DNA of 64,000 nt, taken from the NCBI RefSeq assembly GCF_050320075.1, contig NZ_CP190018.1; one strand, 5' to 3'. This stretch comes from Escherichia coli. GTDB taxonomy: Bacteria > Pseudomonadota > Gammaproteobacteria > Enterobacterales > Enterobacteriaceae. Numbering within the stretch: position 1 is the stretch's first letter; every line of letters starts with the position of its first letter. Below are positions 17,737-46,973 of this stretch, piece by piece. Position numbers and translations under genes: made by a program. The notes below the pieces were generated by a model. The model was not told where the DNA came from. It did not search any database and saw only the letters and a program-made list of their open reading frames with translations.

Positions 17737-17762
<26 letters not shown>

Positions 17763-23859: not shown

Positions 23860-23865
23860 CAAATG

Positions 23866-24575: not shown

Positions 24576-24664
24576 AACAAGCTGTTATATGATAATAACT
24601 ACGTTGCGATTCCAACATTTAAAATGTTAGACTAATGAGAATCAGACAGCAACTTTTCCTTTAA

Positions 24665-30020: not shown

Positions 30021-30087
30021 AGCATATTCTTTCCTGTTCAAACTGGAGAGAATTGTACTACAGTTTGAACTCAACTCACCTGTTTCA

Positions 30088-30390
30088 TCATTGTGTACCC
30101 ATTGATGTTCTTTTATATACCCTCAATACCCGTTTCATCGCGGCACTCTGGCGACACTCCTTAAAAATCAAATTCGTGCTCACCTTTCCTTCCCATTCTT
30201 CTCTGGTAGCGAACCGATAATACACCGTTCGCCAGACCTTACCATCAACGACCAGGATTCCTGCCCGCGCCATTTTAGCCGCAGCCTGATTTATGCTGGT
30301 TACCGTTGCGCCTGTTACCGCGGCAACGTCCTGCGCACAGAATTTCTTATGAGTCCCCAGGTAATGAATAATTGCCTCTTTGCCCGTCAT
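30088..30390 (-). CDS. ren: Ren protein
   Basis: 100-aa ORF MTGKEAIIHYLGTHKKFCAQDVAAVTGATVTSINQAAAKMARAGILVVDGKVWRTVYYRFATREE... matches lambda Ren. Confidence 0.9.
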   Translation of the reverse strand: MTGKEAIIHYLGTHKKFCAQDVAAVTGATVTSINQAAAKMARAGILVVDGKVWRTVYYRFATREEWEGKVSTNLIFKECRQSAAMKRVLRVYKRTSMGTQ

Positions 30391-31088: not shown

Positions 31089-32104
31089 AGATCCACCCCG
31101 TAAATCCAGTCAGTGTTTGTCAGGTCGAGTTTTGGTTTGCCGACTGTCACGCCAGCCTGTTGCTTGTTCCGGTTGATTTCGAGCTGGGTCCACTTGTCGC
31201 GGAGTTTGGCCGGACTCAGCACGTTACCGGACCAGAAGTTGTCCTGGCAGGCCCAGCGGAACAGTACACACATGTCGCGGTGGTTACGTCCATCACGTTC
31301 ACGCATCAGACGGATATCGTTAGCCCACCCTGCAAAATTCGGTTTTCTGGCTGATGGCGCGATGGTCTTCACCATGTCAAACATCCACTCTGCGGCGGTC
31401 AGGTCTTCTGCTGTCCCCCACTTGCTGCCGCTCTGAATTGCAGCATCCGGTTTCACCACAGGAAGATCGTTTTCTGGTTGGTCAGAGGATTCGCCAGAAT
31501 TCTCGGACGAAAAAGGTTTTATATTGTCTTTTGTTAGTTTGTCTTTTGTGTTTACCTGATTCGGGTAAACGCCTTTACCTGATTTGGGTAAACTTTTTTT
31601 ACCTGATTCAGGTAAATTTACCTCTTTCAGGTAAACTTTATTTTTCTTACCTGATTCGGGTAATGTTGACCATTCACTGACCACATTATTAATGCCGGTA
31701 TTCCGCCCGCTCTGAATAAAAATCCCACGCTTTACCAGAACACTTTTTGCAGCAGAACACTTGTGCGGCAATATCCCGGTTAATTCGGAAAGTTGCTCGT
31801 TGCTAACCCAATCCAGTTTTTTATTAAAGCCATATGTTTTGCGCATGACAGCCAGAAAGACCAGAAGCTGGTGCTGTGTTAATCCGGCCAGCATCACAGC
31901 TTCCAGCAACTCATTTGCAATGCGCGTATAACCATCATCGAGATCTGCCACGCGCGGCTCCTTTTGTGCCTCATCCGGCACTGGAAAATTGAATATCTCA
32001 GCAGTGTTTGCCATAATTCCTTCCGCAATGAGTGCGTTACGATTTGCACCTGAAAGTCGGCTCTGTTCCCGCAGACCGGCTTTCGCCATTTCTGAACCTG
32101 TCAT
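31085..32104 (-). CDS. O: Replication initiator O (non-lambda N-terminal iteron-binding domain, lambda-like C-terminal P-interaction domain); alternative start at 32014
   Basis: 339-aa ORF whose C-terminal ~100 aa match lambda O; start overlaps the upstream ydaT-like stop in ATGA; ori iterons inside the gene. Confidence 0.88.
   Translation of the reverse strand: MTGSEMAKAGLREQSRLSGANRNALIAEGIMANTAEIFNFPVPDEAQKEPRVADLDDGYTRIANELLEAVMLAGLTQHQLLVFLAVMRKTYGFNKKLDWVSNEQLSELTGILPHKCSAAKSVLVKRGIFIQSGRNTGINNVVSEWSTLPESGKKNKVYLKEVNLPESGKKSLPKSGKGVYPNQVNTKDKLTKDNIKPFSSENSGESSDQPENDLPVVKPDAAIQSGSKWGTAEDLTAAEWMFDMVKTIAPSARKPNFAGWANDIRLMRERDGRNHRDMCVLFRWACQDNFWSGNVLSPAKLRDKWTQLEINRNKQQAGVTVGKPKLDLTNTDWIYGVDL
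31545..31660. repeat. Replication origin iterons inside O: about five ~18-bp palindromic repeats (TTACCTGATTCGGGTAAA-like) plus AT-rich tract
   Basis: Direct repeats seen in sequence: TACCTGATTCGGGTAAAC, TACCTGATTTGGGTAAAC, TACCTGATTCAGGTAAAT, ACCTCTTTCAGGTAAAC, TACCTGATTCGGGTAATG; position equivalent to lambda ori within O. Confidence 0.8.
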
Positions 32105-32646
32105 ATTGCCCCCAGCATGGTGGTAACCATCGCCATTAATGGACCAGCCAGATCCGGGTCCACACGAAACATCGACACAATACCTTCACTCATTTCCTTC
32201 AGTTTCTGGTGGCGTGGTGCGTTGAGAATGACCGCCTGCTTTGCCTCACAGAGTTCCTTTTCCATTTCAGCCAGCCGAGCCATGAAGCTATCCTGCTCAA
32301 CCAGGTGGCCGCGATATTCCAGCGGTAGTACCGCCAGAATTGCCGGGGTCAGTTCACGCACGTTATTTCGGTATTTTTCAGAATCGAATTTGTTATCGAG
32401 GAAGCGGAACAGCTTCTGGCGTGCACGGCTGACATCATCAGGGAAATCGATGGTGCCGCCGCCCTGCTCCCGATACTCATTCACAATGAGTGCGGCAACA
32501 ACATCCTGATTATCTGCAGCCGACCACGCGCGAACGGCATCACGGATTTTTTCGTGGCCTGGCACCTGTTTTATTTGAGAACGATTTATCACCGCAGTCG
32601 GGCTAAATCCGCTAGTCTGTTGGTATGTAAGTGGTTGCATAGTCAT
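32101..32646 (-). CDS. YdaT-like protein (Rac-prophage ydaT family) in the cII position
   Basis: 181-aa ORF containing ...ELTPAILAVLPLEYRGHLVEQDSFMARLA..., resembling Rac YdaT as I recall it. Confidence 0.6.
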   Translation of the reverse strand: MTMQPLTYQQTSGFSPTAVINRSQIKQVPGHEKIRDAVRAWSAADNQDVVAALIVNEYREQGGGTIDFPDDVSRARQKLFRFLDNKFDSEKYRNNVRELTPAILAVLPLEYRGHLVEQDSFMARLAEMEKELCEAKQAVILNAPRHQKLKEMSEGIVSMFRVDPDLAGPLMAMVTTMLGAI

Positions 32647-32670
32647 TGCCTTATCAGTTAACGCCGCAGT

Positions 32671-32904
32671 TTAGGCGGCAGAATTACTCGCGTTAAACAA
32701 TGGTGCAAGGTCGGGACGAATATCTGCTGGTTTAATCTTTCCACCAGTGGCTGAGACAATTTTCATTACATAGCGGGCATCAATTCCGCCACCGTGTAGC
32801 CAACGCCAAACAGTGGGCTGGGCTACACCGCATAGATCTGCCAGTCGTTTTTGACTACCTGTAATACTGATTGCGAGTTGAATGGTTTGATTTGTCATTA
32901 TCAA
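32671..32904 (-). CDS. Cro/YdaS-like HTH DNA-binding protein (lytic-side regulator)
   Basis: 77-aa ORF ...QKRLADLCGVAQPTVWRWLHGGGIDARYVMKIVSATGG... (helix-turn-helix), divergent from the repressor gene. Confidence 0.75.
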   Translation of the reverse strand: MIMTNQTIQLAISITGSQKRLADLCGVAQPTVWRWLHGGGIDARYVMKIVSATGGKIKPADIRPDLAPLFNASNSAA

Positions 32905-33008
32905 TTCCTATTGGTATTACAATGAATGGATAATAGCAATGCGTATTAATCCAATCAATAGCAAAACGTGTTTTGACCATCAATACGCAAGCGTATAAAT
33001 TAAAACTT
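32905..33008. promoter_or_regulatory. Immunity-region divergent promoter/operator region (OR equivalent) with ATACGC/GCGTAT half-sites including the palindrome ATACGCAAGCGTAT (32983..32996)
   Basis: AT-rich 104-bp spacer between divergent cro-like and cI-like genes; repeated half-sites seen in sequence; operator assignment is inferred. Confidence 0.5.
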
Positions 33009-33701
33009 ATGAAAAAAGAAACTCTTGCTGATCGCTTAAACCTAGCGATGGAACAATCTGGAATGTCTCAAGGCGCTCTTGCAAAGGCGTCTGGCGTAGC
33101 TCAACCCACAATCTGGAGACTGACAAGCGGCAACGCACGCGGCTCAACAAAAATTGTTGAAATAGCTAATGCATTGGGTGTTCGAACAGAGTGGCTCTCA
33201 TCAGGCATAGGCCCGATGAGAAATGACGGTCAACAATCAGGGAAGCCTGCTGTCAACCATTCCAAATACTTCAAAATTGACGTTCTTGATATAGAAGTCA
33301 GTGCTGGGCCGGGTGTCATCAACCGTGAGTTTGTAGAAGTCCTACGCTCGGTTGAGTACTCGTTTGACGATGCTCGTCACATGTTCGATGGCAGGAAGGC
33401 AGAAAATATCCGCATCATTAACGTACGCGGTGACAGCATGTCAGGAACGATCGAACCAGGTGATCTTCTGTTCGTTGATATCACTGTTAAATCTTTCGAC
33501 GGTGATGGTATCTATGCGTTTCTGTACGACGACACAGCCCATGTAAAGCGCCTGCAAATGATGAAGGATAAGCTGCTGGTTATCTCTGATAACAAGAGCT
33601 ACTCACCGTGGGACCCGATCGAAAAAGACGAAATGAATCGGGTATTTATATTTGGGAAAGTTATTGGGAGTATGCCACAGACATATAGAAAACATGGGTA
33701 G
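33009..33701 (+). CDS. CI-type prophage repressor (N-terminal HTH, C-terminal S24 LexA-like autopeptidase domain)
   Basis: MKKETLADRLNLAMEQSGMSQGALAKASGVAQPTIWRLTSGN... plus C-terminal RGDSMSGTIEPGDLLFV...VKRL motifs and a candidate Ala-Gly cleavage site (VSAGPG); not lambda cI. Confidence 0.88.
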   Translation: MKKETLADRLNLAMEQSGMSQGALAKASGVAQPTIWRLTSGNARGSTKIVEIANALGVRTEWLSSGIGPMRNDGQQSGKPAVNHSKYFKIDVLDIEVSAGPGVINREFVEVLRSVEYSFDDARHMFDGRKAENIRIINVRGDSMSGTIEPGDLLFVDITVKSFDGDGIYAFLYDDTAHVKRLQMMKDKLLVISDNKSYSPWDPIEKDEMNRVFIFGKVIGSMPQTYRKHG

Positions 33702-33807
33702 ATTATTAATGACAGATTTCATCAAGATAACCAGATGATGTTTTGGTGAGACATGCTGACATCCTCATAATTTATAGAATGGATGTTTCAAGCAGAGCTT
33801 AAGGTAT

Positions 33808-35415
33808 ATGGATATGTCAAAAAAAATTTTTGAATTCAAAAATTACCCAATAGTCTTTATTGGCTCAGGCATTTCAAAAAGATATTTAGAGAACTACCCA
33901 ACGTGGGAAGAGCTATTAAACGAGTATTGGAAAATAACAAATCCCACAAATGATTTCTATAGTTATCTTTTAACAATAAAAGAATCACATAAAAATAACA
34001 GTGATAATGATATCGATCATAAGATTTATACAGAGGCAGCAAGTAAAATTGAAAATGATTACAATCTATTGTTTAGGACTGGCAAATTAAAATTAAATGG
34101 ACTAGATGCCAAGAGGGTTTTTAGTGAAGATATTTCACCATTTAAATACGCCATATGCCAAAGATTTTCTAATAACACAATCAGAAAGGATGTAAATCTT
34201 GATGAATTAGCATCATTTAAAACATTAATAAAAAAGGCCAAGATAATCATCACTACAAATTATGATGCTTTCATAGAAAATTTACTTCAAGAGCAAAATG
34301 TAACTCCAAAACTCTATATTGGAAATAATGGTTTTTTCGAAGATACTATTGGCTGGAGTGAGTTATACAAAATACATGGTGATATAAAGGATCCACACTC
34401 AATAATCATAAATAAAGATGATTACGAAAAATATGACAACAAATCTATACTCATTAGTGCCAAGATACTATCTAACATGATTAAAAATCCAATAGTTTTT
34501 CTTGGATATTCTTTAACTGACAGGAATGTAAAGAAACTTCTTTCTGATTTTTCCTCACAACTACCTAGAGAAGATGGTCGAAAATCAGCTGAAAGAATAA
34601 TTTTGATTGAATATAAAGAGAATGAACAGGAAGTAGTACCAAAACAGATTACCGATCAACAGCTACAAATTACATATACATCTGTTAAAACAGATAACTA
34701 TAAACAGATCTATGATGAGATCAGTGCTGTTGATGAAGGGCTCTCACCTTATGATGTTTTAAGGTATCAAAGAGCCATTAAAACACTTATCATTAATGAG
34801 GGTGAAAAAGGGCACTTAGATACTCTATTGGTTTCACCTTCTGACTTAGACAGACTTGAAGAAAGTGTTAAACAAGGAAAAAATTTAGTTGTTGCTCTAG
34901 GCGATAAAAAGTATGTATTCACACAAGTTAAAGAAATAAATTATCTTGAAGACTACTTATTTAATAAAAATGAAATATCTAATAAATTAGCTATAGATTT
35001 CATATTAGGTTCAGTAAACTCATTACAACTTCCATTTTCAAAAACTATAACCTCATGTAATTTGAAAGAGTTAAGTTTGCCAGCTAAATATGTGTTAAAA
35101 CTAAATCAACGCATTGAACGCCACGGAAAACTAGACGACTTGCTCAATAAAATCACCTTAGATAAAATCAATGCAAATAAAATTTACACCAACATCAAAG
35201 ATATAAAGGATGCAAAGTTCAAAAAGTACAAAGAATTGTCTATAGTCATTAAGAACATAAAAAATATCCCCAAAGAGGAGATTGAAGATTATGTTAAAAA
35301 AGAAGCGTTTGTTCAATTCAAGGCATGCGACGTTGACAATTTAAAAACCCAGTATAGGAAACTATTTCTTGCCTACGACTTGTTGATTCATGGAAATGTT
35401 GAAAAGATAAATTAA
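33808..35415 (+). CDS. SIR2-like (sirtuin-family, SIR2_2-type) domain protein with uncharacterised C-terminal half; candidate single-gene anti-phage defence protein in the rexAB-equivalent position
   Basis: 535-aa ORF, about 28-30% GC; motifs FIGSGISK (res 17-24), IIITTNYD (N151), YKIHGD (H190), IVFLGYSLTD (229-238) with Asn-His spacing of 39 as in defence-associated SIR2 domains; directly downstream and co-oriented with the repressor. Confidence 0.7.
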   Translation: MDMSKKIFEFKNYPIVFIGSGISKRYLENYPTWEELLNEYWKITNPTNDFYSYLLTIKESHKNNSDNDIDHKIYTEAASKIENDYNLLFRTGKLKLNGLDAKRVFSEDISPFKYAICQRFSNNTIRKDVNLDELASFKTLIKKAKIIITTNYDAFIENLLQEQNVTPKLYIGNNGFFEDTIGWSELYKIHGDIKDPHSIIINKDDYEKYDNKSILISAKILSNMIKNPIVFLGYSLTDRNVKKLLSDFSSQLPREDGRKSAERIILIEYKENEQEVVPKQITDQQLQITYTSVKTDNYKQIYDEISAVDEGLSPYDVLRYQRAIKTLIINEGEKGHLDTLLVSPSDLDRLEESVKQGKNLVVALGDKKYVFTQVKEINYLEDYLFNKNEISNKLAIDFILGSVNSLQLPFSKTITSCNLKELSLPAKYVLKLNQRIERHGKLDDLLNKITLDKINANKIYTNIKDIKDAKFKKYKELSIVIKNIKNIPKEEIEDYVKKEAFVQFKACDVDNLKTQYRKLFLAYDLLIHGNVEKIN

Positions 35416-35919
35416 ATAAACGCCCCGTACAAAGCGATGGCGGGGCTAATAAGTCATTTATGTATCATTTAGCAACTGACTAAAAAAATACACATAAGAA
35501 CTCAGACTACCAATATTCGATTAAATTTGCTGCCAACCTACCGAGCTCACCACAACCCGATGCCCCTCTGTCACGAGGCACATTAAAGCTGTACAAATTT
35601 CAGCCACACCAATAAGTCTTCATACTCTTTTTTATAAAAATTCATTTAATTATCAATCAGAACAAGTATATCAAACATTATCAATACTAATTGCTATTGA
35701 CTACACCAATAGCTATTGCTATTGTCATGCTATTGCATCGATGTTGGTATCACAAAATTTATAACTTCACCGTTGCGATGACCGCTTAGATCCGCAGCTT
35801 GAATTTCAGCAGGCTCCGGGGAGTGCGAGGGGTGAAGCGGACGCGTGAACGTCGGTGTGACCAGCTGAAATCAACTCAACACTTCATACCTCAGTCGCTT
35901 CAACGAGGCGACTTAGTTA

Positions 35920-36209
35920 TGACAACCGGCGGCCATCCACCGCCTGAATACGCGCAGAAGTCTCTATATGTTCAGCAGCCCAGCTTACGGGCAGGAGTTT
36001 TTATGGTTCATCAACATTACGGAACGCAGACCGTTAATCGAGGTGCGGTCATGCCAGGAATGCTGGTCAAACACAAAGATGGTACCTGGACTGCATCAGC
36101 TAATTTACGCGGACGGCTATATCTGCATCGCGGCATCGAGCGCACTTATACCCGTGATTTGCTCGTGGAAGTTTTTCTCGACGGACGCGGTAACGGCCTG
36201 AATCACTAA
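35920..36209 (+). CDS. Hypothetical protein (96 aa from ATG; a TTG-initiated 136-aa version starts at 35799)
   Basis: [38 protein letters not shown]... with upstream GAGG; sits where lambda has N-ral-cIII-kil but resembles none of them. Confidence 0.35.
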
Positions 36210-36284
36210 TCCCCTTTCCTGTTTTCCTAATCAGCCTGGCATTTCGCGGGCGATATTTTCACAGCCATTTTCAGGAGTTCAGCC

Positions 36285-36581
36285 ATGAACGCTTATTACA
36301 TTCAGGATCGTCTTGAGGCTCAGAGCTGGGCGCGTCACTACCAGCAGATCGCCCGTGAAGAGAAAGAGGCAGAACTGGCAGACGACATGGAAAAAGGTCT
36401 GCCCCAGCACCTGTTTGAATCACTCTGCATCGATCATTTGCAACGTCACGGGGCCAGCAAAAAAGCCATTACCCGTGCGTTTGATGACGATGTTGAGTTT
36501 CAGGAGCGCATGGCAGAACACATCCGGTACATGGTTGAAACCATTGCTCACCACCAGGTTGATATTGATTCAGAGGTATAA
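36285..36581 (+). CDS. gam: Gam (RecBCD inhibitor; 98-aa short form)
   Basis: [60 protein letters not shown]... matches lambda Gam. Confidence 0.93.
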
Positions 36582-36586
36582 AACGG

Positions 36587-37372
36587 ATGAGTACAGCACT
36601 CGCAACGCTGGCTGGGAAGCTGGCTGAACGAGTCGGCATGGATTCTGTCGACCCACAGGAACTGATCACCACTCTTCGCCAGACGGCATTTAAAGGTGAT
36701 GCCAGCGATGCGCAGTTCATCGCATTGCTGATCGTCGCCAACCAGTACGGTCTTAATCCGTGGACGAAAGAAATTTACGCCTTCCCTGATAAGCAGAACG
36801 GCATCGTTCCGGTGGTGGGCGTTGATGGCTGGTCCCGCATCATCAACGAAAACCAGCAGTTTGACGGCATGGACTTTGAACAGGACAACGAATCCTGCAC
36901 ATGCCGGATTTACCGCAAAGACCGCAATCATCCGATCTGCGTTACCGAGTGGATGGATGAATGCCGCCGCGAACCATTCAAAACCCGCGAAGGCAGAGAA
37001 ATCACCGGACCGTGGCAGTCGCATCCCAAACGGATGTTACGGCATAAAGCCATGATTCAGTGTGCCCGTCTGGCCTTCGGATTTGCTGGTATCTATGACA
37101 AGGATGAAGCCGAGCGCATTGTCGAAAATACTGCATACACTGCAGAACGTCAGCCGGAACGCGACATCACTCCGGTTAACGATGAAACCATGCAGGAGAT
37201 TAACACTCTGCTGATCGCCTTGGATAAAACATGGGATGACGACTTATTGCCGCTCTGTTCCCAGATATTTCGCCGCGACATTCGCGCATCGTCAGAACTG
37301 ACACAGGCCGAAGCAGTGAAAGCTCTTGGATTCCTGAAACAGAAAGCCACTGAGCAGAAGGTGGCAGCATGA
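36587..37372 (+). CDS. bet: Bet (Red-beta single-strand annealing protein)
   Basis: 261-aa [69 protein letters not shown]... matches lambda Beta. Confidence 0.95.
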
Positions 37373-38049
37373 CACCGGACATTATCCTGCAGCGTACCGG
37401 GATCGACGTGAGAGCTGTCGAACAGGGGGATGATGCATGGCACAAATTACGGCTCGGCGTCATCACCGCTTCAGAAGTTCACAACGTGATAGCAAAGCCC
37501 CGATCAGGAAAGAAGTGGCCTGACATGAAAATGTCCTACTTCCACACCCTGCTAGCTGAGGTTTGCACCGGTGTGGCTCCGGAAGTTAACGCTAAAGCGC
37601 TGGCCTGGGGAAAACAGTACGAGAACGACGCCAGAACCCTGTTTGAGTTCACTTCCGGCGTAAATGTTATTGAATCCCCGATCATCTATCGCGACGAAAG
37701 TATGCGCACCGCCTGCTCTCCCGATGGTTTATGCAGTGACGGCAATGGCCTTGAGCTGAAATGCCCGTTTACCTCCCGGGATTTCATGAAATTCCGGCTC
37801 GGTGGTTTCGAGGCCATAAAGTCGGCTTACATGGCCCAGGTGCAGTACAGCATGTGGGTGACGCGAAAAGATGCCTGGTACTTTGCCAACTATGACCCGC
37901 GTATGAAGCGTGAAGGCCTGCATTATGTCGTGATTGAGCGGAATGAAAAGTATATAGCGAGTTTTGACGAGATGGTGCCGGAGTTCATCGAAAAAATGGA
38001 CGAGGCACTGGCTGAAATTGGTTTTGTATTTGGGGAGCAATGGCGATGA
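37369..38049 (+). CDS. exo: Exo (lambda exonuclease, Red-alpha)
   Basis: 226-aa [68 protein letters not shown]... matches lambda Exo. Confidence 0.95.
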
Positions 38050-38228
38050 AACATCCTCACGATAATATCCGCGTAGGCACGATCACTTTCGTCTACTCCG
38101 TTACGAAGCGAGGCTGGGTATTTCCCGGCCTTTCTGTTATCCGAAATCCCCTGAAAGCACAGCGGCTGGCTGAGGAGATAAATAATAAACGGGGAGCTGT
38201 ATGCACAAAGCATCTCCCGTTGAGTTAA
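38040..38228 (+). CDS. Lambda orf60a-like small protein
   Basis: 62-aa [65 protein letters not shown] in the position of the small lambda ORF following exo. Confidence 0.7.
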
Positions 38229-38392
38229 GAACGAGTATCGAGATGGCACATAGCCTCGCTCAAATTGGAGTCAGGTTTGTGCCAATACCAGTAGAAACAG
38301 ACGAAGAATTTCATACGTTAGCCGCATCCCTTTCACAAAAGCTGGAAATGATGGTGGCGAAAGCAGAAGCAGATGAGAGAGACCAGGTATGA
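38201..38392 (+). CDS. Lambda orf63-like small protein
   Basis: 63-aa [66 protein letters not shown]. Confidence 0.65.
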   Translation: MHKASPVELRTSIEMAHSLAQIGVRFVPIPVETDEEFHTLAASLSQKLEMMVAKAEADERDQV

Positions 38393-38468
38393 CAACCACG
38401 GAATGCATTTTTCTGGCAGCGGGCTTCATATTCTGTGTGCTTATGCTTGCCGACATGGGACTTGTTCA

Positions 38469-38684
38469 ATGACACCTCAGCAGGAAAACGCCCTTCGCAG
38501 CATTGCCCGTCAGGCTAATTCTGAAATCAAAAAAGCCAGACAGCAGTTTCCGGATAAAAACGTCGATGACATTTGCCGTAGCGTACTGAAGAAGCACCGC
38601 GAAACGGTAACGCTGATGGGATTCACACCGACTCATTTAAGCCTGGCAATCGGCATGTTAAACGGCGTCTTTAAGGAACGATGA
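38469..38684 (+). CDS. Lambda orf61-like small protein
   Basis: ORF MTPQQENALRSIARQANSEIKKARQQFPDKNVDDICRSVLKKHRETVTLMGFTPTHLSLAIGMLNGVFKER from internal ATG. Confidence 0.6.
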   Translation: MTPQQENALRSIARQANSEIKKARQQFPDKNVDDICRSVLKKHRETVTLMGFTPTHLSLAIGMLNGVFKER

Positions 38685-38782
38685 ACATGAAAAGCAAAAT
38701 CATCAGGGAGCTACAGGCTCCTTTTTTATTATTCGCATTCACCCTCAAGCGTATTAACCAACAATTCAGGGATTAATGGAAG

Positions 38783-39004
38783 ATGGCAGACATCATTGAT
38801 TCAGCATCAGAAATTGAAGAATTACAGCGCAACACAGCAATAAAAATGCGCCGCCTGAACCACCAGGCTATATCTGCCACTCATTGTTGTGAGTGTGGCG
38901 ATCCGATAGATGAACGAAGACGCCTGGTCGTTCAGGGTTGTCGGACTTGTGCAAGTTGCCAGGAGGATCTGGAGCTTATCAGTAAACAGAGAGGTTCGAA
39001 GTGA
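38783..39004 (+). CDS. TraR/DksA-family C4 zinc-finger protein (lambda orf73-like, probable RNA-polymerase-binding factor)
   Basis: 73-aa ORF with CCECGDPIDERRR...CRTCASCQ four-cysteine motif. Confidence 0.75.
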   Translation: MADIIDSASEIEELQRNTAIKMRRLNHQAISATHCCECGDPIDERRRLVVQGCRTCASCQEDLELISKQRGSK

Positions 39005-39214
39005 GCGAAATTAACTAGAAGCCAAAGATAAAATCATCGCTGAGCAGGAGAAAATCGCTAACGGAGAAAAGACAGTAAGTCAGTATATGAAAACCGCATG
39101 ATATCATCAGATAAAAATCGGTCGTAAAGCGAAATATTAATACCAGAACAAACGAGTCGAGGTAAATTATATTACCTCGATAAATTAACTAAAACTTGCC
39201 CGCTATATACTATA

Positions 39215-39817
39215 TCATTCAGTATCATCACGCGCGGTCTGTGCATATGTCACTACCGCACCTAATATATTAATTTTCTTTTCAACATAGATAATATTAT
39301 CGTACTCATAATTGCCATACGGATAGCAAATGCGAATATTCTCATGTAGATCGGGGTCATCCACCTCAGCTCCAGAACAACTTTTTGAACTACCGGAAGT
39401 ATACCGATACGGTGCAACATAAGACGATGTCTCTCCAGGCAAAAAATAAGTTAGTGTCGTAAGGGGTATAATCAGAAAAAATCCAGCAAATATGCACATC
39501 CCTGCATAAACCTTAAGGTATGCTGACAGACTCTTCCAGCCTCTTTGTTTTACTATCCCCTTCTTAACCCAAAACAGAGATAACAGAAAAGCTATTCCCA
39601 TGCTAAACAGAATGTAATAGTGGGATATACTCTGATTAAGAAACGTGACCCTGTAGATATCTGCCCGCCACCAGAAGAAAAGGAAAATAAAGATCAGCCC
39701 TGAAACTGTCATGCAAATCAAATAAGGATACGAATCTTTTTTCATGTTTAGCGCCCATAAAATTTTTCCTGACCCGGACAAATTTACCATCCATTTTTTG
39801 CGCAGAAAATAGCTCAT
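39215..39817 (-). CDS. Hypothetical polytopic membrane protein (prophage cargo; likely start at the MKKDSY Met, 39745)
   Basis: 200-aa ORF with at least three hydrophobic helices (LICMTVSGLIFIFLFFWW; YYILFSMGIAFLLSLFWV; VYAGMCIFAGFFLIIPLTTLTYFL) and a hydrophilic C-terminal domain; low GC; opposite strand to surrounding early-left genes. Confidence 0.55.
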   Translation of the reverse strand: MSYFLRKKWMVNLSGSGKILWALNMKKDSYPYLICMTVSGLIFIFLFFWWRADIYRVTFLNQSISHYYILFSMGIAFLLSLFWVKKGIVKQRGWKSLSAYLKVYAGMCIFAGFFLIIPLTTLTYFLPGETSSYVAPYRYTSGSSKSCSGAEVDDPDLHENIRICYPYGNYEYDNIIYVEKKINILGAVVTYAQTARDDTE

Positions 39818-40266
39818 TACTTACTGCACAATAATACACAAAATTGCGTAAATTTTTTGCATGGATTTTAGCTCTTTCAGCCGACATTTAAGGGGTAAAT
39901 AGCATTTCCTAAAAGCAACTGCACCAACCCAACAGAATGGGCTACCGCTTACGTTGAGAGCAAAAAAGTGTATAGCAGCAATGAACAGCATCCTCGCACT
40001 GACGAGGATTTCTTTTATCTGAACTCGCTACGGCGGGTTTTGTTTTATGGCGATGATAAATGCACTTCCGAGTCACAGGAGAATGGAATGGAGAGCCATT
40101 CAACAGAGTTATCGAAGCGGAGAACATCAACGACTGCTACGACCACTGGATGATATGGGCGCAGATAGCACATGCAGACATAACCAATATTCGAATTGAA
40201 GAACTGAAAGAACACCAAGCCGCCTGATGGCGGTTTTTTCTTGCGTGTAATTGCGGAGACTTTGCG

Positions 40267-40485
40267 ATGTACTTGACACTTCAGGAGTGGAACGCACGCC
40301 AGCGACGCCCAAGAAGCCTTGAAACAGTTCGTCGATGGGTGCGCGAATGCAGGATATTCCCTCCTCCGGTTAAGGATGGAAGAGAATATCTGTTCCACGA
40401 ATCAGCGGTAAAGGTTGACTTAAATCGACCAGTAACAGGTAGCCTTTTGAAGAGGATCAGAAATGGGAAGAAGGCGAAGTCATGA
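40267..40485 (+). CDS. xis: Excisionase Xis
   Basis: 72-aa ORF MYLTLQEWNARQRRPRSLETVRRWVRECRIFPPPVKDGREYLFHESAVKVDLNRPVTGSLLKRIRNGKKAKS matches lambda Xis. Confidence 0.95.
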   Translation: MYLTLQEWNARQRRPRSLETVRRWVRECRIFPPPVKDGREYLFHESAVKVDLNRPVTGSLLKRIRNGKKAKS

Positions 40486-41533
40486 GCGCCGGGATTTACC
40501 CCCTAACCTTTATATAAGAAACAATGGATATTACTGCTACAGGGACCCAAGGACGGGTAAAGAGTTTGGATTAGGCAGAGACAGGCGAATCGCAATCACT
40601 GAAGCCATACAGGCCAACATTGAGTTATTTTCAGGACACAAACACAAGCCTCTGACAGCGAGAATCAACAGTGATAATTCCGTTACGTTACATTCATGGC
40701 TTGATCGCTACGAAAAAATCCTGGCCAGCAGAGGAATCAAGCAGAAGACACTCATAAATTACATGAGCAAAATTAAAGCAATAAGGAGGGGGCTGCCTGA
40801 TGCTCCACTTGAAGACATCACCACAAAAGAAATTGCGGCAATGCTCAATGGATACATAGACGAGGGCAAGGCGGCGTCAGCCAAGTTAATCAGATCAACA
40901 CTGAGCGATGCATTCCGAGAGGCAATAGCTGAAGGCCATATAACAACAAACCCTGTCGCTGCCACTCGCGCAGCAAAATCAGAGGTAAGGAGATCAAGAC
41001 TTACGGCTGACGAATACCTGAAAATTTATCAAGCAGCAGAATCATCACCATGTTGGCTCAGACTTGCAATGGAACTGGCTGTTGTTACCGGGCAACGAGT
41101 TGGTGATTTATGCGAAATGAAGTGGTCTGATATCGTAGATGGATATCTTTATGTCGAGCAAAGCAAAACAGGCGTAAAAATTGCCATCCCAACAGCATTG
41201 CATGTTGATGCTCTCGGAATATCAATGAAGGAAACACTTGATAAATGCAAAGAGATTCTTGACGGAGAAACCATAATTGCATCTACTCGTCGTGAACCGC
41301 TTTCATCCGGCACAGTATCAAGGTATTTTATGCGCGCACGAAAAGCATCAGGTCTTTCCTTCGAAGGGGATCCGCCTACCTTTCACGAGTTGCGCAGTTT
41401 GTCTGCAAGACTCTATGAGAAGCAGATAAGCGATAAGTTTGCTCAACATCTTCTCGGGCATAAGTCGGACACCATGGCATCACAGTATCGTGATGACAGA
41501 GGCAGGGAGTGGGACAAAATTGAAATCAAATAA
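40463..41533 (+). CDS. int: Integrase Int (tyrosine recombinase)
   Basis: 356-aa ORF MGRRRSHERRDLPPNLYIRNNGYYCYRDPRTGKEFGLGRDRRIAITEAIQANIELFSGHKHKPLTARINSD... matches lambda Int. Confidence 0.95.
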   Translation: MGRRRSHERRDLPPNLYIRNNGYYCYRDPRTGKEFGLGRDRRIAITEAIQANIELFSGHKHKPLTARINSDNSVTLHSWLDRYEKILASRGIKQKTLINYMSKIKAIRRGLPDAPLEDITTKEIAAMLNGYIDEGKAASAKLIRSTLSDAFREAIAEGHITTNPVAATRAAKSEVRRSRLTADEYLKIYQAAESSPCWLRLAMELAVVTGQRVGDLCEMKWSDIVDGYLYVEQSKTGVKIAIPTALHVDALGISMKETLDKCKEILDGETIIASTRREPLSSGTVSRYFMRARKASGLSFEGDPPTFHELRSLSARLYEKQISDKFAQHLLGHKSDTMASQYRDDRGREWDKIEIK

Positions 41534-41606
41534 TGATTTTATTTTGACTGATAGTGACCTGTTCGTTGCAACAAATTGATAAGCAATGCTTTTTTATAAT
41601 GCCAAC

Positions 41607-41621
41607 TTAGTATAAAAAAGC
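41607..41621. other. attL core (15-bp lambda att core, GCTTTTTTATACTAA on the minus strand) with the P' arm toward int
   Basis: Plus strand TTAGTATAAAAAAGC at 41607..41621; P'-arm sequence (minus strand ...GTTGGCATTATAAAAAAGCATTGCTTATCAATTTGTTGCAACGAACAGGTCACTATCAGTCAAAATAAAATCATTA) at 41534..41606; host ybhC-side sequence to the right. Confidence 0.85.
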
Positions 41622-41667
41622 AGGCTTCAACGGATTCATTTTTCTATTTCATAGCCCGGAGCAACCT

Positions 41668-42951
41668 GTGAACACATTTTCAGTTTCCCGTCTGGCGCTG
41701 GCATTGGCTTTTGGCGTGACGCTGACCGCCTGTAGCTCAACACCGCCCGATCAACGTCCTTCTGATCAAACCGCGCCTGGTACCTCTTCTCGCCCGATTC
41801 TGTCGGCAAAAGAAGCGCAGAATTTCGATGCTCAACACTATTTTGCATCCCTGACACCAGGTGCTGCAGCGTGGAATCCTTCCCCGATTACCCTGCCTGC
41901 ACAACCTGACTTTGTTGTCGGCCCGGCGGGTACTCAAGGTGTAACGCATACCACGATTCAGGCGGCGGTAGATGCGGCAATTATCAAGCGTACCAACAAG
42001 CGCCAGTATATTGCCGTGATGCCTGGTGAGTATCAGGGAACGGTGTATGTCCCTGCCGCTCCGGGTGGAATTACTCTGTACGGTACAGGTGAAAAACCGA
42101 TTGATGTGAAAATTGGGCTTTCCCTTGATGGGGGCATGAGCCCAGCCGACTGGCGTCACGACGTCAACCCACGCGGCAAATATATGCCGGGTAAACCAGC
42201 GTGGTATATGTACGATAGCTGCCAGAGCAAACGCAGCGACAGCATTGGCGTGCTCTGTTCTGCGGTCTTCTGGTCACAAAACAATGGCCTGCAACTGCAA
42301 AACCTGACCATCGAAAACACACTGGGCGATAGCGTAGATGCGGGTAACCATCCGGCGGTGGCACTGCGTACTGATGGCGACAAAGTGCAGATCAATAACG
42401 TCAATATTCTCGGTCGCCAGAATACCTTCTTTGTCACCAACAGCGGTGTGCAAAACCGTCTGGAAAGCAACCGTCAGCCGCGTACCCTGGTGACTAACAG
42501 CTACATTGAAGGGGATGTGGATATCGTTTCTGGTCGCGGCGCAGTGGTGTTCGATAACACCGAATTCCGCGTGGTGAACTCCCGTACCCAGCAAGAAGCG
42601 TATGTGTTTGCACCGGCTACGCTGTCCAACATTTACTACGGTTTCCTCGCCGTAAACAGCCGTTTCAATGCTTCCGGGGATGGCGTGGCGCAACTGGGCC
42701 GCTCGCTGGATGTTGATGCCAATACCAACGGTCAGGTAGTGATCCGTGATAGCGCCATCAACGAAGGTTTTAACACGGCGAAACCGTGGGCCGATGCGGT
42801 GATTTCCAATCGTCCGTTTGCGGGTAATACTGGCAACGTTGATGATAACGACGAAGTACAGCGCAATCTGAATGACACTAACTACAACCGCATGTGGGAA
42901 TACAATAACCGCGGCGTGGGTAGCAAAGTGGTTGCAGAGGCGAAGAAGTAA
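41668..42951 (+). CDS. ybhC: Pectinesterase-family outer-membrane lipoprotein / putative acyl-CoA thioester hydrolase YbhC
   Basis: 427-aa ORF MNTFSVSRLALALAFGVTLTACSSTPPDQRP... with lipobox; gene order matches the E. coli gal-bio interval. Confidence 0.9.
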   Translation: MNTFSVSRLALALAFGVTLTACSSTPPDQRPSDQTAPGTSSRPILSAKEAQNFDAQHYFASLTPGAAAWNPSPITLPAQPDFVVGPAGTQGVTHTTIQAAVDAAIIKRTNKRQYIAVMPGEYQGTVYVPAAPGGITLYGTGEKPIDVKIGLSLDGGMSPADWRHDVNPRGKYMPGKPAWYMYDSCQSKRSDSIGVLCSAVFWSQNNGLQLQNLTIENTLGDSVDAGNHPAVALRTDGDKVQINNVNILGRQNTFFVTNSGVQNRLESNRQPRTLVTNSYIEGDVDIVSGRGAVVFDNTEFRVVNSRTQQEAYVFAPATLSNIYYGFLAVNSRFNASGDGVAQLGRSLDVDANTNGQVVIRDSAINEGFNTAKPWADAVISNRPFAGNTGNVDDNDEVQRNLNDTNYNRMWEYNNRGVGSKVVAEAKK

Positions 42952-42993
42952 AAAAGAAAACCCGATAGTCTGAACCATCGGGTTAATGAAACT

Positions 42994-43022
42994 GGGCGCT
43001 ATATTTCATAGCGCCTTTTTTT
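42994..43022. terminator. Bidirectional rho-independent terminator between convergent ybhC and ybhJ
   Basis: GGGCGCTATATTTCATAGCGCC hairpin followed by T7; a second hairpin CCCGATAGTCTGAACCATCGGG lies at 42961..42982. Confidence 0.7.
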
Positions 43023-45282
43023 ACATCTGACGGTTTTTATTGAAGTTAATCAAACTACCCGCCTTGATAATCTCGCGCTCTTCGGCCGTCAGGCTTTCCA
43101 TGTAAAGCGTAATTTCCGTTACCGGCGCATCTTCATGGATCACATAACCTTTAAACGTCGTACCCGGATTATCCAGCGCTGCTTTAATGCCAGGGATGTA
43201 AATGTAATCACCTACGTCAAAGTTCGGTGCTTCCGCCATCTGCAGCGGTAACATCCCCCAGTTGATGACGTTAGAACGATAGCGTTTAGTCGCGTACTCC
43301 TCGGCAATATTCGCCAGACCGCCAATCACACGCTGACAACTCGCCGCCTGTTCACGCGCAGACCCATCGCCTGGTTTCACCGCATAAACCATGCTGCCAA
43401 TTTCAGTTTGCAGCGGATCAATATGCTCCTGACCAGCAATCTGCTTAATGCGCGCAAACACCTCTGTCAGCTCGCTGACATTTCCCGCCAGACGCTGATT
43501 TTCCAGCTCAGCAGTCGCTTTACTTCTACCAACATAACCTGGATCGCGGCGTGACAGGGTAAACTCCGTCAGACCAATCGGATTTGAACGATAAGAAGAG
43601 GTTTCACCGGAAGGAATCAGTTCGTCGGTGGTGGTCACTTCGTCGAGGATCTTCGAGCACACTTTGAGGACGATATTGTCAGTCAGCGCACCCAATTCTG
43701 GCCAGTCTTTAATGTTCGGTCCGTAAATCAGCGGTTGCTGGGTCGCCCCTTTCACAAAGCCCTGATAAACACGGTTTTTATACGGCGTTACATCGAAGGC
43801 GTACTCCGGCACGTTGTCCCAGCAATCCAGCTCGCTGGCAGAGGTTAAATAGCCACCGTTTGCCGCAGTCGCCGCAATAGAACGAGCGTCCATCAACGCC
43901 ACCGCTGACATCTGCCCATTAGCTGGCTTAGAGCCTTCGCGGTTCGGGAAGTTACGCGTGGTGTGGCGAATACTCAAACCGTTGTTGATTGGCGTATCGC
44001 CCGCGCCAAAGCATGGGCCGCAGAACGCGGTTCTGATGATTGAGCCTGCGCCAATCAAATCTGCGACCACACCTTTTTTGGCGAGATCCATAAACACCGG
44101 CTGTGATGACGGGTAAACCGCCAGCGAGAAGGTGTCATTGCCACAGGATTGACCGCGCAGTGCATTCGCCGCCGCGATGACGTTTTCGTAGTTACCGCCA
44201 GAACAGCCCGCGATAATCCCCTGCTGCACTTTCAGGCGACCGTTTTCGACTTTATCCAGCAGCGAGAGTTTGGCTTTACCGTGCGCCACGCGTTCGGACT
44301 CAATTTCAATCTCACGCAGAATGTCGGTCAGGTTCTGGTTCAGCGTGTCGATTTCATAGACGTTGCTCGGGTGGAACGGCAGCGCAATCATTGGTTTGAT
44401 GGCGCTTAAATCAACGCTGATGCAGCCATCGTAGTACGCCATTGGTTGAGGGTTAAGCTGGCAGTAATCCTGGCCGCGACCGTGCAACGCCAGCCAGTTA
44501 TGGACTTCTTCATCGGTTTGCCAGACAGAACTTAAACAGGTCGTTTCAGTGGTCATCACGTCAACGCTGTTGCGGAAATCGGTAGAGAGCGCTGCAACAC
44601 CGGGACCTACGAACTCCATCACTTTGTTTTTGACGTAACCGTTTTTGAACACGGCACCGATGATAGCCAGCGCCACATCCTGCGGCCCCACATACGGCGC
44701 AGGTTTTCCGGTCAGATGCACCGCAACCACGCCCGGATAGTCGATATCCCAGGTGTCATTAAGCAGTTGTTTTACCAACTCGCCGCCGCCCTCGCCAACC
44801 GCCATTGTCCCTAACGCACCGTAACGGGTATGGCTGTCTGACCCGAGGATCATTTTGCCGCCGCCTGCCATCATCTCACGCATATATTGATGGATGACCG
44901 CAATGTGCGGAGGCACAAAAATACCGCCATAACGCTGGGCTGCCGATAAACCAAAAACATGATCATCACCGTTAATAGTGCCGCCGACGGCGCAGAGTGA
45001 GTTATGGCAGTTGGTCAGCACATACGGCAGCGGGAAACGTTCCATACCGGACGCTTTAGCGGTCTGTACAATACCAACAAAGGTAATATCGTGAGAGGCT
45101 AATGAATCAAACTTAATTTTAAGTTTATCCATATTTCCGGACGTATTATGAGAAGAGAGAATAGACCAGGCAATAGTGCCTTTTTTGGCTTCTTCTTTTT
45201 TAATTTCGCCGGTGAAATGTTCTTCGGCAATTATTTCGTTATTACTGGCGAGAAACACGCCTTTTTCAGATAACTTGATCAT
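43021..45282 (-). CDS. ybhJ: Aconitase-family protein YbhJ
   Basis: [79 protein letters not shown]... aconitase-like; 753 aa from the second Met. Confidence 0.88.
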
Positions 45283-45464
45283 CAAATGCTCCAGATATCT
45301 GCGCACCGGAAAGTGCGCAGAAAGATAATAAATGGATATACTCTAAATAATTCGAGTTGCAGGAAGGCGACAAGAGAGTGAATCCCCAGGCGCTTACATA
45401 AGTAAGTGACTGGGGTGAGCGAACGCAGACGCAGCACATGCAACTTGAAGTATGACGAGTATAT

Positions 45465-46898
45465 TTACAGCATGTTCCAGCCGATCAGCATATTCCACCA
45501 CCACACGCCGAGGGTGATATGCACCAGGAAGGTTAATATCGTCAGTACCGCACCGACCAACCACCAGGATTTAATATCGTTGTAACCCACGCCAAAGATG
45601 ACCGGACCTGCCGCGCCGCCATAGTGAGTAACCATGCCGCCATAGGAGTTAGAGAACAACAGTGCCAGCGCGGTTAACATTAACGGTGCGCCGGAGACAT
45701 TCGCCAGCATGGCAAATACCGGTAACATGGCAACGATATAGGCACTACCAGAAGCGAAGAAATAACGCACGATGATGCTGAGGAAAATAATAACGAAGAA
45801 AGCAACGTTCCCGTGACCATCAAATGCCAGGTTATTTTTAAAGACTTCAGCTAACCATTCGAAGAATTTAACTTTCGATAATAAGGAGCTTAAGCCGATA
45901 ATACCGCCGTACCAGATTAAGGTATTCCAGCCGCCTTTATTTTTAACCACGTCTTCCCAGGTAACGATACCCAGCAGCAGCATAGTTGCCATAACAACGA
46001 TTGCCACGGTGGATTCATCAACCCCCAGAGACTTACTGAAAATCCAGCCCAGCAGCGCCAGCACAAAGACACCGAGCAGCATTTTTTCGCGGATTTTCAT
46101 CGGTCCCAGTTCGGCAAGGCCCGCTTTAGCGATGGTTTTGTTATCCACCTTCTTAATTTCTGGTGGATACATGGTGTAAATCACCAGCGGGGTGACCAGC
46201 AGCATAATGATGCCAGGCAATCCGGCGGCTAGCGCCCATCCACCCCAGCTAATTTGCAGGTGCAGAATGTCGTTGATCATTTTCAGCGCCAGAATGTTCC
46301 CCGCCATTGCGGTAAAGAACATATAGCTGGTGGTTTTGGTGACCATGTAAATGGACATCATCAGGTAATGTCCGACACGACGCGGACTTTTTTCCGGTTC
46401 TGACCCCAAAGCCACCGCCACGCTGTTGATGATCGGTAACACAATGCCGCCCGCACGCGCGGTGTTAGACGGTGTTGCCGGAGCCAGTACCAGATCGAGA
46501 AATACCGTAACGTAACCCAGACCCAGGGTAGTGCTACCAATTTTACCAATCAGCAGATAGGCAATACGTTTACCTAAGCCTGTGGTTACAAACGCGGCGC
46601 TTAAAGTAAACGCAGAAAACACCAGCCAGGTGGTACCGGAAGAGTAACCGCTTAATACGGCGGTGGTTTTAAATTCCCCACCTGATAAGTTACCCACCAC
46701 TACCATCGATGCGGCGACGGCAATTAACAGTACGACAGGTTCCGGGAAAGGCTTGATAACCAGCCCCACAATGGCCGCCAGGTAAATACCAAAAAGCACC
46801 CACGCCAGTTCGCTTAATCCTGCTGGAGCTGGCATAAAGCCAATAATACATGGGATTGCTAATATCAGAATTAGCTTCCATAACGATTTCTTATTCAT
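45465..46898 (-). CDS. ybhI: DASS-family anion transporter YbhI
   Basis: 477-aa polytopic membrane ORF MNKKSLWKLILILAIPCIIGFMPAPAGLSELAWVLFGIYLAAIVGLVIKPFPEP... Confidence 0.88.
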   Translation of the reverse strand: MNKKSLWKLILILAIPCIIGFMPAPAGLSELAWVLFGIYLAAIVGLVIKPFPEPVVLLIAVAASMVVVGNLSGGEFKTTAVLSGYSSGTTWLVFSAFTLSAAFVTTGLGKRIAYLLIGKIGSTTLGLGYVTVFLDLVLAPATPSNTARAGGIVLPIINSVAVALGSEPEKSPRRVGHYLMMSIYMVTKTTSYMFFTAMAGNILALKMINDILHLQISWGGWALAAGLPGIIMLLVTPLVIYTMYPPEIKKVDNKTIAKAGLAELGPMKIREKMLLGVFVLALLGWIFSKSLGVDESTVAIVVMATMLLLGIVTWEDVVKNKGGWNTLIWYGGIIGLSSLLSKVKFFEWLAEVFKNNLAFDGHGNVAFFVIIFLSIIVRYFFASGSAYIVAMLPVFAMLANVSGAPLMLTALALLFSNSYGGMVTHYGGAAGPVIFGVGYNDIKSWWLVGAVLTILTFLVHITLGVWWWNMLIGWNML

Positions 46899-46973
46899 TT
46901 AATATCCTGTTCTTTCTGTATGACTCATACAGAAGTCCTTTATTGATTGTCCTTATCCTGACAACGAATTTTT

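What the first reader, a model, noticed from the sequence alone, without database searches (positions are those of the whole stretch)
39215..39817. Polytopic membrane protein encoded antisense in the lambda ea/b-region equivalent
Between the TraR-like gene and xis, where lambda carries ea genes, this prophage has a single AT-rich gene on the opposite strand. It encodes a protein with at least three transmembrane helices and a soluble C-terminal domain rich in Tyr/Gly/Ser, with no family I recognise. Opposite-strand membrane proteins near the integration module are typical of lysogenic-conversion or superinfection-exclusion genes expressed in the lysogen.
Basis: inference. Interest (0 to 1): 0.45.

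Follow-up and report, generated by a model that had tools for sequence, protein, structure and literature searches.

The report
Uncharacterised prophage membrane-protein cargo gene
This is a real, strongly conserved but never-studied gene for a small inner-membrane protein. It travels as a self-contained cassette between two unrelated kinds of E. coli and Salmonella prophage, and most likely protects the lysogen's envelope against incoming phages, though that function is inferred and not shown.

Summary
The ORF at 39215..39817 (minus strand) exists as described, but the protein is probably 176 aa and starts at the ATG at 39745. All homologues outside 434-type prophages start there, and in-frame stops interrupt the upstream 24 codons in other alleles.

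The region is at least 98% identical to phage 434 ("putative membrane protein") and to O157:H7 Sakai Sp3 gene ECs_0804. The gene is in about 18% of complete E. coli genomes and is always annotated hypothetical. It has no Pfam, NCBIfam or PADLOC match, and its only PHROG has no known function.

AlphaFold2 (pLDDT 92.6) gives three transmembrane helices and a C-terminal five-stranded beta domain with two invariant cysteines. The domain is predicted to be periplasmic and has no significant structural match. dN/dS is 0.09-0.17.

A 758-bp AT-rich cassette (upstream region, ORF, hairpin) is shared with P2-like prophages. There, homologues sit between gpA and the portal gene, the known old/tin defence hotspot. 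The gene stays intact in decayed prophages. More distant relatives are ordinary chromosomal genes.

Best reading: a lysogen-expressed moron encoding a new family of inner-membrane, periplasm-facing exclusion protein. Function and expression are inferred, not shown. It is not a member of the SieA family or of any Sie or defence family in the libraries searched.

The parts
39215..39745 (-). Most likely true coding sequence: 176 aa plus stop, starting MKKDSYPYL...
   Evidence: Conserved start in 37 homologues. In-frame stops lie upstream in other alleles. dN/dS is 0.09-0.17. PGAP annotates the 176-aa form in strain RM8082.
39746..39817 (-). The 24 codons that extend the ORF to 200 aa. Probably promoter and 5' leader rather than coding sequence.
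   Evidence: The nucleotides are conserved, but the frame is broken by stops in L021, L012 and L027.
39443..39733 (-). Three transmembrane helices (residues 5-29, 38-61 and 71-101 of the 176-aa protein). The strongly basic loop 2 is predicted to be cytoplasmic.
   Evidence: AlphaFold2 model, pLDDT 92.6. Hydropathy and charge counts: loop 2 has 5 K+R and 0 D+E.
39233..39439 (-). C-terminal five-stranded beta domain (residues 103-171), predicted periplasmic. The invariant Cys123 (39377..39379) and Cys140 (39326..39328) lie at the base of the beta2-beta3 hairpin.
39781..39789 (-). TGgTAAATT, an extended -10-like element about 35 nt upstream of the Met25 ATG. Candidate promoter only.
   Evidence: Conserved as TGaTAAATT or similar in P2-type alleles and partly in chromosomal relatives. 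The strict consensus scan did not call it. Inferred, not shown.
39828..39860 (-). Degenerate copies of an ATTGTGCA direct repeat (three clean copies, period 10, in P2-type alleles). Includes the TTGT-N6-TTGT that the 434 record labels a CII site.
   Evidence: The TTGY-N6-TTGY pattern is not above chance in the window: 8 found against 15 expected.
39157..39180 (-). Terminator-like hairpin (9-bp stem) 35 nt after the stop codon, followed by CTCGTTTGTT.
   Evidence: the 96-nt region folds with z = -2.1.
39125..39882 (-). Extent of the mobile cassette: 758 bp, 76% identical to a P2-like E. coli prophage locus (L021 5864-6619).
   Evidence: blastn. Flanking sequence is unrelated.
39990..40040 (+). 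Context only: two terminator-like hairpins on the pL strand, equivalent to tL4 of phage 434. They lie just after the antisense gene.
   Evidence: and the annotation of M60848.

Best explanation
The locus is an autonomous, AT-rich cargo cassette (a 'moron') of about 0.76 kb. It encodes a 176-aa inner-membrane protein.

Predicted topology: N-terminus in the cytoplasm, three transmembrane helices, a short periplasmic loop 1, a basic cytoplasmic loop 2, and a C-terminal domain of about 70 residues. That domain is a small beta barrel stapled by a conserved cysteine pair and faces the periplasm.

The gene is probably transcribed from its own weak promoter while the prophage is repressed, convergent with the silent pL operon. 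The protein probably acts at the periplasm/inner-membrane interface to stop superinfecting phages from delivering their DNA. It could do this by binding an incoming tail, tape-measure or ejection component, or by masking an inner-membrane entry factor.

Shown here: gene reality, start site, predicted topology and fold, cassette mobility, genomic contexts, purifying selection.

Inferred: expression in lysogens, periplasmic disulphide, anti-phage function and target.
For: - The gene is real and constrained. dN/dS is 0.09-0.17. It occurs in 914 of 5426 complete E. coli genomes, plus 77 with a P2-type allele.
- Moron features are present. GC is 0.37-0.39 against 0.50-0.52 around it. A hairpin follows the stop. 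A conserved upstream non-coding block carries an extended -10-like motif. Only 5 of 216 related phage records carry the gene.
- The cassette, including its upstream region, is shared between 434-type lambdoid and P2-like prophages.
- In P2-like prophages of Salmonella, Klebsiella and E. coli, the homologue always sits between gpA and the portal gene and is convergent with gpA. That site is the old/tin defence hotspot (10.1101/2024.10.15.618418).
- The gene is intact where its neighbours are pseudogenes: O157 Sp3/CP-933K (int frameshifted, bet truncated) and the RM8082 remnant.
- The structure is confident (pLDDT 92.6) and conservation is concentrated in the C-terminal domain. The positive-inside rule places that domain in the periplasm, and its two cysteines are invariant.
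- Size and architecture parallel P22 SieA, which is 162-164 aa, has three TM segments, sits in the inner membrane and blocks DNA injection (PMC10883804). HK97 gp15 is a moron-encoded inner-membrane exclusion protein that also has chromosomal relatives (PMC3594210).
Against: - There are no expression data and no phenotype data. Literature and supplement searches found nothing on this gene.
- No consensus sigma-70 promoter was found upstream.
- There is no homology to any known exclusion or defence protein.
- Relatives at 30-56% identity in Enterobacter, Klebsiella, Cedecea and others are lone chromosomal genes outside prophages. The family's ancestral role is therefore probably cellular.
- Hotspot location is guilt by association. 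The neighbours in those hotspots are themselves unannotated.
Confidence: 0.42

Rival explanations
1. It is a lysogenic-conversion or fitness factor unrelated to phage. The periplasm-facing membrane protein would alter envelope physiology (stress tolerance, permeability, signalling), doing the same job as its chromosomal relatives. Prophages would simply carry an extra copy.
For: Distant family members are single chromosomal genes in ordinary neighbourhoods, often beside LysR- or OmpR-type regulators and GGDEF/EAL genes. There is no conserved partner gene. The window's prophage resembles one that carries several non-defence morons (lom, iss, ompC, emrE).
Against: The phage-borne copies sit precisely in sites enriched for anti-phage cargo. 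HK97 gp15 shows that a chromosomal family (YebO) can give rise to an exclusion protein.
Confidence: 0.25
2. It is an abortive-infection-type membrane effector. The protein would sense infection and depolarise or permeabilise the inner membrane, killing the infected cell rather than blocking entry.
For: It is a small polytopic membrane protein in defence hotspots. Many defence effectors are membrane proteins (established knowledge, for example RexB).
Against: There are no charged or polar pore-lining residues in the three helices, and the helices are the least conserved part. Conservation lies in the periplasmic domain, away from cytoplasmic infection cues. It is a single gene with no sensor partner. 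There is no PADLOC match.
Confidence: 0.1
3. It is an orphan immunity protein against a membrane- or periplasm-acting toxin (pore-forming colicin, CDI or T6SS effector), carried by prophages to protect lysogens from competitors.
Confidence: 0.08
4. It serves the phage's own lytic cycle (lysis, injection or assembly), or it is a non-functional leftover ORF.
For: None specific. The ORF lies within the early-left region.
Against: It is antisense to the pL operon and absent from most lambdoid relatives. It is shared with unrelated P2-like phages, retained in dead prophages, and under strong purifying selection. It has no similarity to structural or lysis families.
Confidence: 0.05

Closest known systems
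P22 SieA (superinfection exclusion A)
   Same: Prophage-encoded single gene with its own promoter. About 160-176 aa, three predicted transmembrane segments, no signal peptide, uncertain start codon, inner-membrane location (PMC10883804).
   Different: No detectable homology (hhalign probability 0.3%). SieA's conserved motif FxRYPxEAxxFNK is predicted cytoplasmic and is absent here. In this protein the conserved part is a periplasm-facing beta domain with a cysteine pair. No function has been tested here.
HK97 gp15 (YebO-related moron exclusion protein)
   Same: A moron with deviant GC content. It encodes a small inner-membrane protein expressed from the prophage that blocks genome entry without touching the outer-membrane receptor. 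Its homologues are mostly chromosomal enterobacterial genes (PMC3594210), the same pattern as seen here.
   Different: It is an unrelated sequence (no Pfam hit). gp15 is much smaller with one membrane segment (from memory), and it lies in the tail operon rather than beside int/xis.
P2 old/tin hotspot cargo
   Same: Homologues at 56-78% identity occupy exactly this site, between gpA and the portal gene and convergent with gpA, in P2-like prophages.
   Different: Old is a cytoplasmic nuclease and Tin a cytoplasmic protein (from memory). Neither resembles this membrane protein. The window's copy is in a lambdoid phage, not in P2.
T4 Imm and Sp; lactococcal Sie2009
   Same: Small membrane-anchored proteins that block DNA entry at the inner membrane or periplasm (PMC11436027). 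Sie2009 genes lie beside the integrase and are expressed in lysogens (from memory).
   Different: There is no sequence or fold relationship. Imm and Sp belong to a lytic phage.
SNIPE membrane-bound nuclease
   Same: A constitutively membrane-localised E. coli defence that acts at the site of siphovirus genome injection and contacts the tape-measure protein (PMC13190303).
   Different: SNIPE has a nuclease domain and cleaves DNA. This protein has no enzymatic domain, and its soluble domain is predicted to be periplasmic.

Membership tests
P22 SieA family | Sequence or profile homology to SieA types A-C | tested here: not met
   hhalign of the 37-sequence profile against P22 SieA: probability 0.3%, E 0.22.
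P22 SieA family | Conserved C-terminal motif FxRYPxEAxxFNK on the cytoplasmic side | tested here: not met
   The motif is absent from the sequence and from the family consensus. Motif taken from PMC10883804.
P22 SieA family | Inner-membrane protein of about 160 aa with three TM segments | tested here: met
   Three TM helices by hydropathy and AlphaFold2. This is prediction only.
P22 SieA family | Blocks DNA injection by specific phages | not testable with these tools
   Needs plating-efficiency, adsorption and DNA-entry assays.
Other known exclusion families with Pfam models (T4 Imm, SieB, YebO/HK97 gp15; the existence of these Pfam models is recalled from memory, accessions not checked) | Match to the family HMM | tested here: not met
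   The Pfam scan at E up to 10 returned only DUF6057 at E 0.18. None of the 37 members hit such a family. NCBIfam returned nothing.
Known or candidate anti-phage defence systems (PADLOC-DB 2.0) | Match to any of 5027 defence-protein models | tested here: not met
   0 families at E up to 10.
Moron (Juhala/Hendrix definition) | Base composition differs from flanking phage genes | tested here: met
   GC 0.373 for the cassette against 0.524 (bet-exo) and 0.452 (int).
Moron (Juhala/Hendrix definition) | Present in some but absent from closely related phages; horizontally mobile | tested here: met
   5 of 216 related phage records carry it. The cassette is shared with P2-like prophages.
Moron (Juhala/Hendrix definition) | Own promoter | tested here: inconclusive
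   There is a conserved upstream block with the extended -10-like TGgTAAATT, but no consensus promoter was called.
Moron (Juhala/Hendrix definition) | Own terminator | tested here: inconclusive
   A 9-bp-stem hairpin with a T-containing tail lies 35 nt after the stop. The hairpin is poorly conserved in P2-type alleles.
Moron (Juhala/Hendrix definition) | Expressed from the repressed prophage | not testable with these tools
   No transcript data were found.
P2 old/tin hotspot cargo | Located between gpA (replication) and the portal gene of a P2-like prophage | tested here: met
   True for homologues P0039, P0044, P0048 and P0054. Not applicable to the window copy, which lies in a lambdoid prophage.
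PHROG 1416 | HMM match | tested here: met
   E 7.1e-51 over residues 113-200. The family has no known function, and its 90-position profile covers only the C-terminal part (last TM helix and beta domain).

The most novel reading that the evidence does not exclude
The protein founds a new family of periplasm-facing inner-membrane exclusion proteins with a previously unseen small disulphide-stapled beta-barrel. The family is exchanged as a promoter-plus-gene cassette between lambdoid and P2-like prophage hotspots and is present in roughly one E. coli genome in six, including phage 434 and O157:H7 Sp3. It would block genome entry of phages by a mechanism distinct from SieA, Imm/Sp, gp15 and Cor. 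A further possibility is that it was derived from a cellular envelope protein whose own role is also unknown.
Probability: 0.3. Interest if true: 0.6.

Novelty: new variant of a known kind. Interest (0 to 1): 0.42.

Why it matters
If the inference holds, a gene sitting unnoticed in a classic model phage (434) and in about 18% of sequenced E. coli would be a new type of entry-blocking defence. It would have a tractable 176-residue architecture and a confident structural model.

It would add a second lambdoid defence-cargo site beside int/xis that exchanges cargo with the P2 old/tin hotspot. It would also affect host-range predictions for phage therapy against E. coli and Salmonella.

If the rival reading holds, the gene still marks an unannotated, conserved enterobacterial envelope protein family. 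In either case the annotated start codon in most records (200 aa) is probably wrong.

Tried and rejected
- **200-aa start codon:** rejected in favour of Met25.
- **Upstream 56-aa ORF (39821..39991), annotated in the 434 record as a membrane protein:** rejected as a likely non-gene. PGAP does not call it, cassette homology ends inside it, and it has no family.
- **'CII binding site' upstream of the gene (434 record):** the pattern is not above chance (8 found, 15 expected). The same repeats occur in P2-like phages, which as far as I recall have no lambda-type CII. The prophage that the window resembles has a YdaT-domain gene at the cII position.
- **Consensus sigma-70 promoter scans:** nothing upstream of the gene.
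- **Sequence searches:** PDB sequence search, the Pfam scan of all 37 members and the second profile search gave no annotated relatives.
- **Rfam:** nothing in 38500..40600.
- **Literature:** searches for phage 434 genome papers, mEp332, ECs0804 and neighbouring locus tags, and one microarray supplement, gave no data on this gene.
- **Hotspot neighbours:** the neighbours of homologues in P2 hotspots have no Pfam or PADLOC hits.

Full report
**1. The observation**

The ORF listing shows a 200-codon ORF at 39215..39817 on the minus strand. The genes around it are all on the plus strand:
- Upstream in the pL direction: gam, bet (36587..37372), exo (37369..38049), and a TraR/DksA zinc-finger gene (38783..39004; Pfam 1.6e-08).
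- Downstream in the pL direction: ORF55 (40060..40227), xis (40267..40485), int (40463..41533), then the host gene ybhC (41668..42951).

This is a lambdoid prophage at the lambda attachment site.

The ORF is AT-rich. Its GC is 0.39 and the cassette's is 0.373, against 0.524 for bet-exo and 0.499 for the whole window. Hydropathy gives three hydrophobic segments. The description is therefore correct.

**2. Identity with known sequences**

The 1.1 kb around the gene is 98.5-99.5% identical to phages 434, mEp332 and 2B8. Only 5 of 216 related phage records carry the whole region; the rest share only the part near tL4/ORF55.

In the curated 434 genome (OL657226) the gene is CPT_434_36, "putative membrane protein". 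The old 434 int-xis record (M60848) shows its 5' end as "ORF-22+" and places terminator tL4 between it and ORF55.

It is present in 914 of 5426 complete E. coli genomes. All copies are chromosomal and all are annotated "hypothetical protein". In O157:H7 Sakai it is ECs_0804 in prophage Sp3. A diverged allele occurs in a further 77 genomes.

**3. The real start**

Homologues from Salmonella, Klebsiella, Enterobacter, Cedecea and others (26-78% identity to the 176-aa protein in alignment A2) all begin at the position of Met25 of the 200-aa frame.

The 72 nt upstream are conserved as DNA but not as a reading frame. In the E. coli and Salmonella P2-type alleles, and in strain RM8082, in-frame stops interrupt them. 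PGAP annotates the 176-aa form in RM8082. I therefore take 39215..39745 as the coding sequence.

**4. The protein**

There is no Pfam, NCBIfam or PADLOC match. PHROG 1416 (function unknown) matches the C-terminal 88 residues.

The family is small. It has 53 representatives at 50% clustering among 1.84 billion proteins, all about 165-190 aa with the same layout. A profile search adds no annotated relatives.

AlphaFold2 with a 37-sequence alignment gives pLDDT 92.6 and pTM 0.80. The model has helices at 5-29, 38-61 and 71-101, a short strand in loop 1, and a five-stranded beta domain at 105-171. The domain modelled alone gives pLDDT 92.3.

Loop 2 has 5 K+R and no acidic residues, whereas the C-terminal domain has a net charge of -6. 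By the positive-inside rule the N-terminus and loop 2 are cytoplasmic, and loop 1 and the C-terminal domain are periplasmic.

Two cysteines (123 and 140) are invariant in all 37 sequences. In the model they lie at the base of the beta2-beta3 hairpin, which fits a periplasmic disulphide. This is an inference, because I could not read the model coordinates.

Nineteen of the 25 positions that are at least 80% conserved fall in the C-terminal domain. The helices and the cytoplasmic loop are the least conserved parts.

- BFVD viral library: no hit at E <= 1e-3.

dN/dS against three diverged alleles is 0.09-0.17.

**5. A mobile cassette**

blastn shows that window 39882..39125 (758 bp) is 76% identical to a locus in a P2-like E. 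coli prophage. This block comprises about 137 bp upstream of the Met25 ATG, the ORF, and about 90 bp downstream. It is 71% identical to Salmonella P2-like loci, and the flanks are unrelated.

The shared upstream block contains an extended -10-like TGgTAAATT (39789..39781). It also contains copies of an ATTGTGCA repeat, three clean copies with period 10 in Salmonella and degenerate copies in the window.

The strict sigma-70 scan calls no promoter there. The promoter is therefore a candidate only.

A 9-bp-stem hairpin lies 35 nt after the stop (39180..39157).

The TTGT-N6-TTGT that the 434 record labels a CII site (39828..39841) is not above chance: 8 matches against 15 expected.

**6. Genomic contexts of relatives**

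Four homologues lie in P2-like prophages between gpA (with a small downstream ORF) and the portal gene. They are convergent with gpA and have variable, unannotated neighbours:
- P0039, E. coli, 78% identity
- P0044, Salmonella, 71%
- P0048, Salmonella, 59%
- P0054, Klebsiella michiganensis, 56%

That interval is the classical old/tin hotspot, a known reservoir of anti-phage systems (10.1101/2024.10.15.618418).

More distant members are single genes in ordinary chromosomal neighbourhoods with no conserved partner (P0055, P0068, P0069, P0086, P0094, P0097).

In decayed prophages the gene stays intact while its neighbours decay:
- O157 Sp3/CP-933K has a frameshifted int and a truncated bet.
- The RM8082 remnant near torI/dsdC has pseudogenised exo and tail genes and an IS4 element.

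**7. Interpretation**

The following all fit a moron that serves the lysogen:
- deviant base composition;
- orientation antisense to the repressed early operon;
- a self-contained layout;
- exchange between two unrelated temperate-phage lineages at sites known for defence cargo;
- survival in dead prophages;
- a conserved periplasm-facing domain.

The closest functional models are P22 SieA and HK97 gp15. [quoted passage not shown]

The protein is not a member of either family. hhalign against SieA gives probability 0.3%, and no Pfam exclusion family matches.

I therefore propose an entry-blocking exclusion protein of a new family, with confidence about 0.4. The broader statement, that this is a lysogen-beneficial accessory membrane protein, I hold at about 0.75.

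The main rival is an envelope-physiology role inherited from the chromosomal relatives. Abortive-infection effector, orphan toxin-immunity protein, and lytic-cycle or junk readings are less likely, for the reasons given under the rival explanations.

**8. What is missing**

I found no transcript, protein or phenotype data. The promoter, the disulphide, the topology and the function are all predictions. The experiments listed under next steps would settle each of them.

**9. Verdict**

The feature is real and correctly described, apart from the start codon. It is already catalogued as a hypothetical or putative membrane protein, but it is functionally unknown.

The new points here are:
- the corrected start codon;
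- the confident three-TM plus periplasmic beta-domain model with no structural match;
- the cassette shared with the P2 old/tin hotspot;
- retention of the gene in decayed prophages.

It is a good but unproven candidate for a new exclusion-protein family, of moderate interest.

Noticed in passing
window 33808..35415 (+): A 535-aa, very AT-rich ORF lies directly downstream of the CI-like S24 repressor (32973..33701), in the position of lambda rexAB. It has a SIR2-like domain (Pfam SIR2_2, 1.2e-23) and a full-length match to the PADLOC candidate defence system PDC-S25 (6e-236). The closest complete genome examined has a different gene pair here (353 aa plus an ASCH domain protein).
   Followed up: partly
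L013 about 5878..5912; window 39828..39860 (-): Three direct repeats of ATTGTGCA with a 10-bp period lie upstream of the gene in P2-type alleles. They are degenerate in the window. They might be a binding-site array for an unknown regulator. The first copy also fits the DnaA-box consensus (consensus recalled from memory, checked by eye only). The 434 record labels part of this region a CII site, but that pattern is not above chance.
   Followed up: partly
window 39821..39991 (-): A 56-aa ORF annotated in the 434 genome record as a second 'putative membrane protein'. PGAP does not call it, it has no family, and only its last 60 nt lie in the conserved cassette. It is probably not a gene.
   Followed up: yes
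L012 5284..5888; L006 3281..6623; L013 6703..8185: Unannotated neighbours share the P2 old/tin hotspot with the homologues. In Salmonella there is an 81-aa plus 119-aa pair on the same strand. In Klebsiella there is a 790-aa AAA_16-like protein plus a 279-aa protein. In another Salmonella locus there is a YafO-toxin gene with 200-aa and 137-aa ORFs. The five proteins scanned against Pfam had no hit and the six scanned against PADLOC had none (the YafO-toxin gene was not scanned). They may be further untested defence candidates.
   Followed up: partly
L027 (NZ_CP043825.1 2652752-2660354): In E. coli RM8082 the gene survives as an intact 176-aa CDS in a heavily eroded prophage remnant next to torI/dsdC. 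It is flanked by pseudogenes and an IS4 element. A TGG-to-TAG change lies in the former 5' extension.
   Followed up: yes
L029/L004 (NZ_CP024243.1), 96-98% identical to most of window 1..47745: The closest complete genome examined has a complete lambdoid prophage here that carries several other accessory genes (lom, iss/bor-like, an ompC/nmpC-like porin, emrE). It also has a YdaT-domain gene in the cII position and no lambda-type N, cII or cIII annotated. These features are read from that record's annotation and were not checked in the window, except for the repressor-side block that aligns to window 30886..33701.
   Followed up: no
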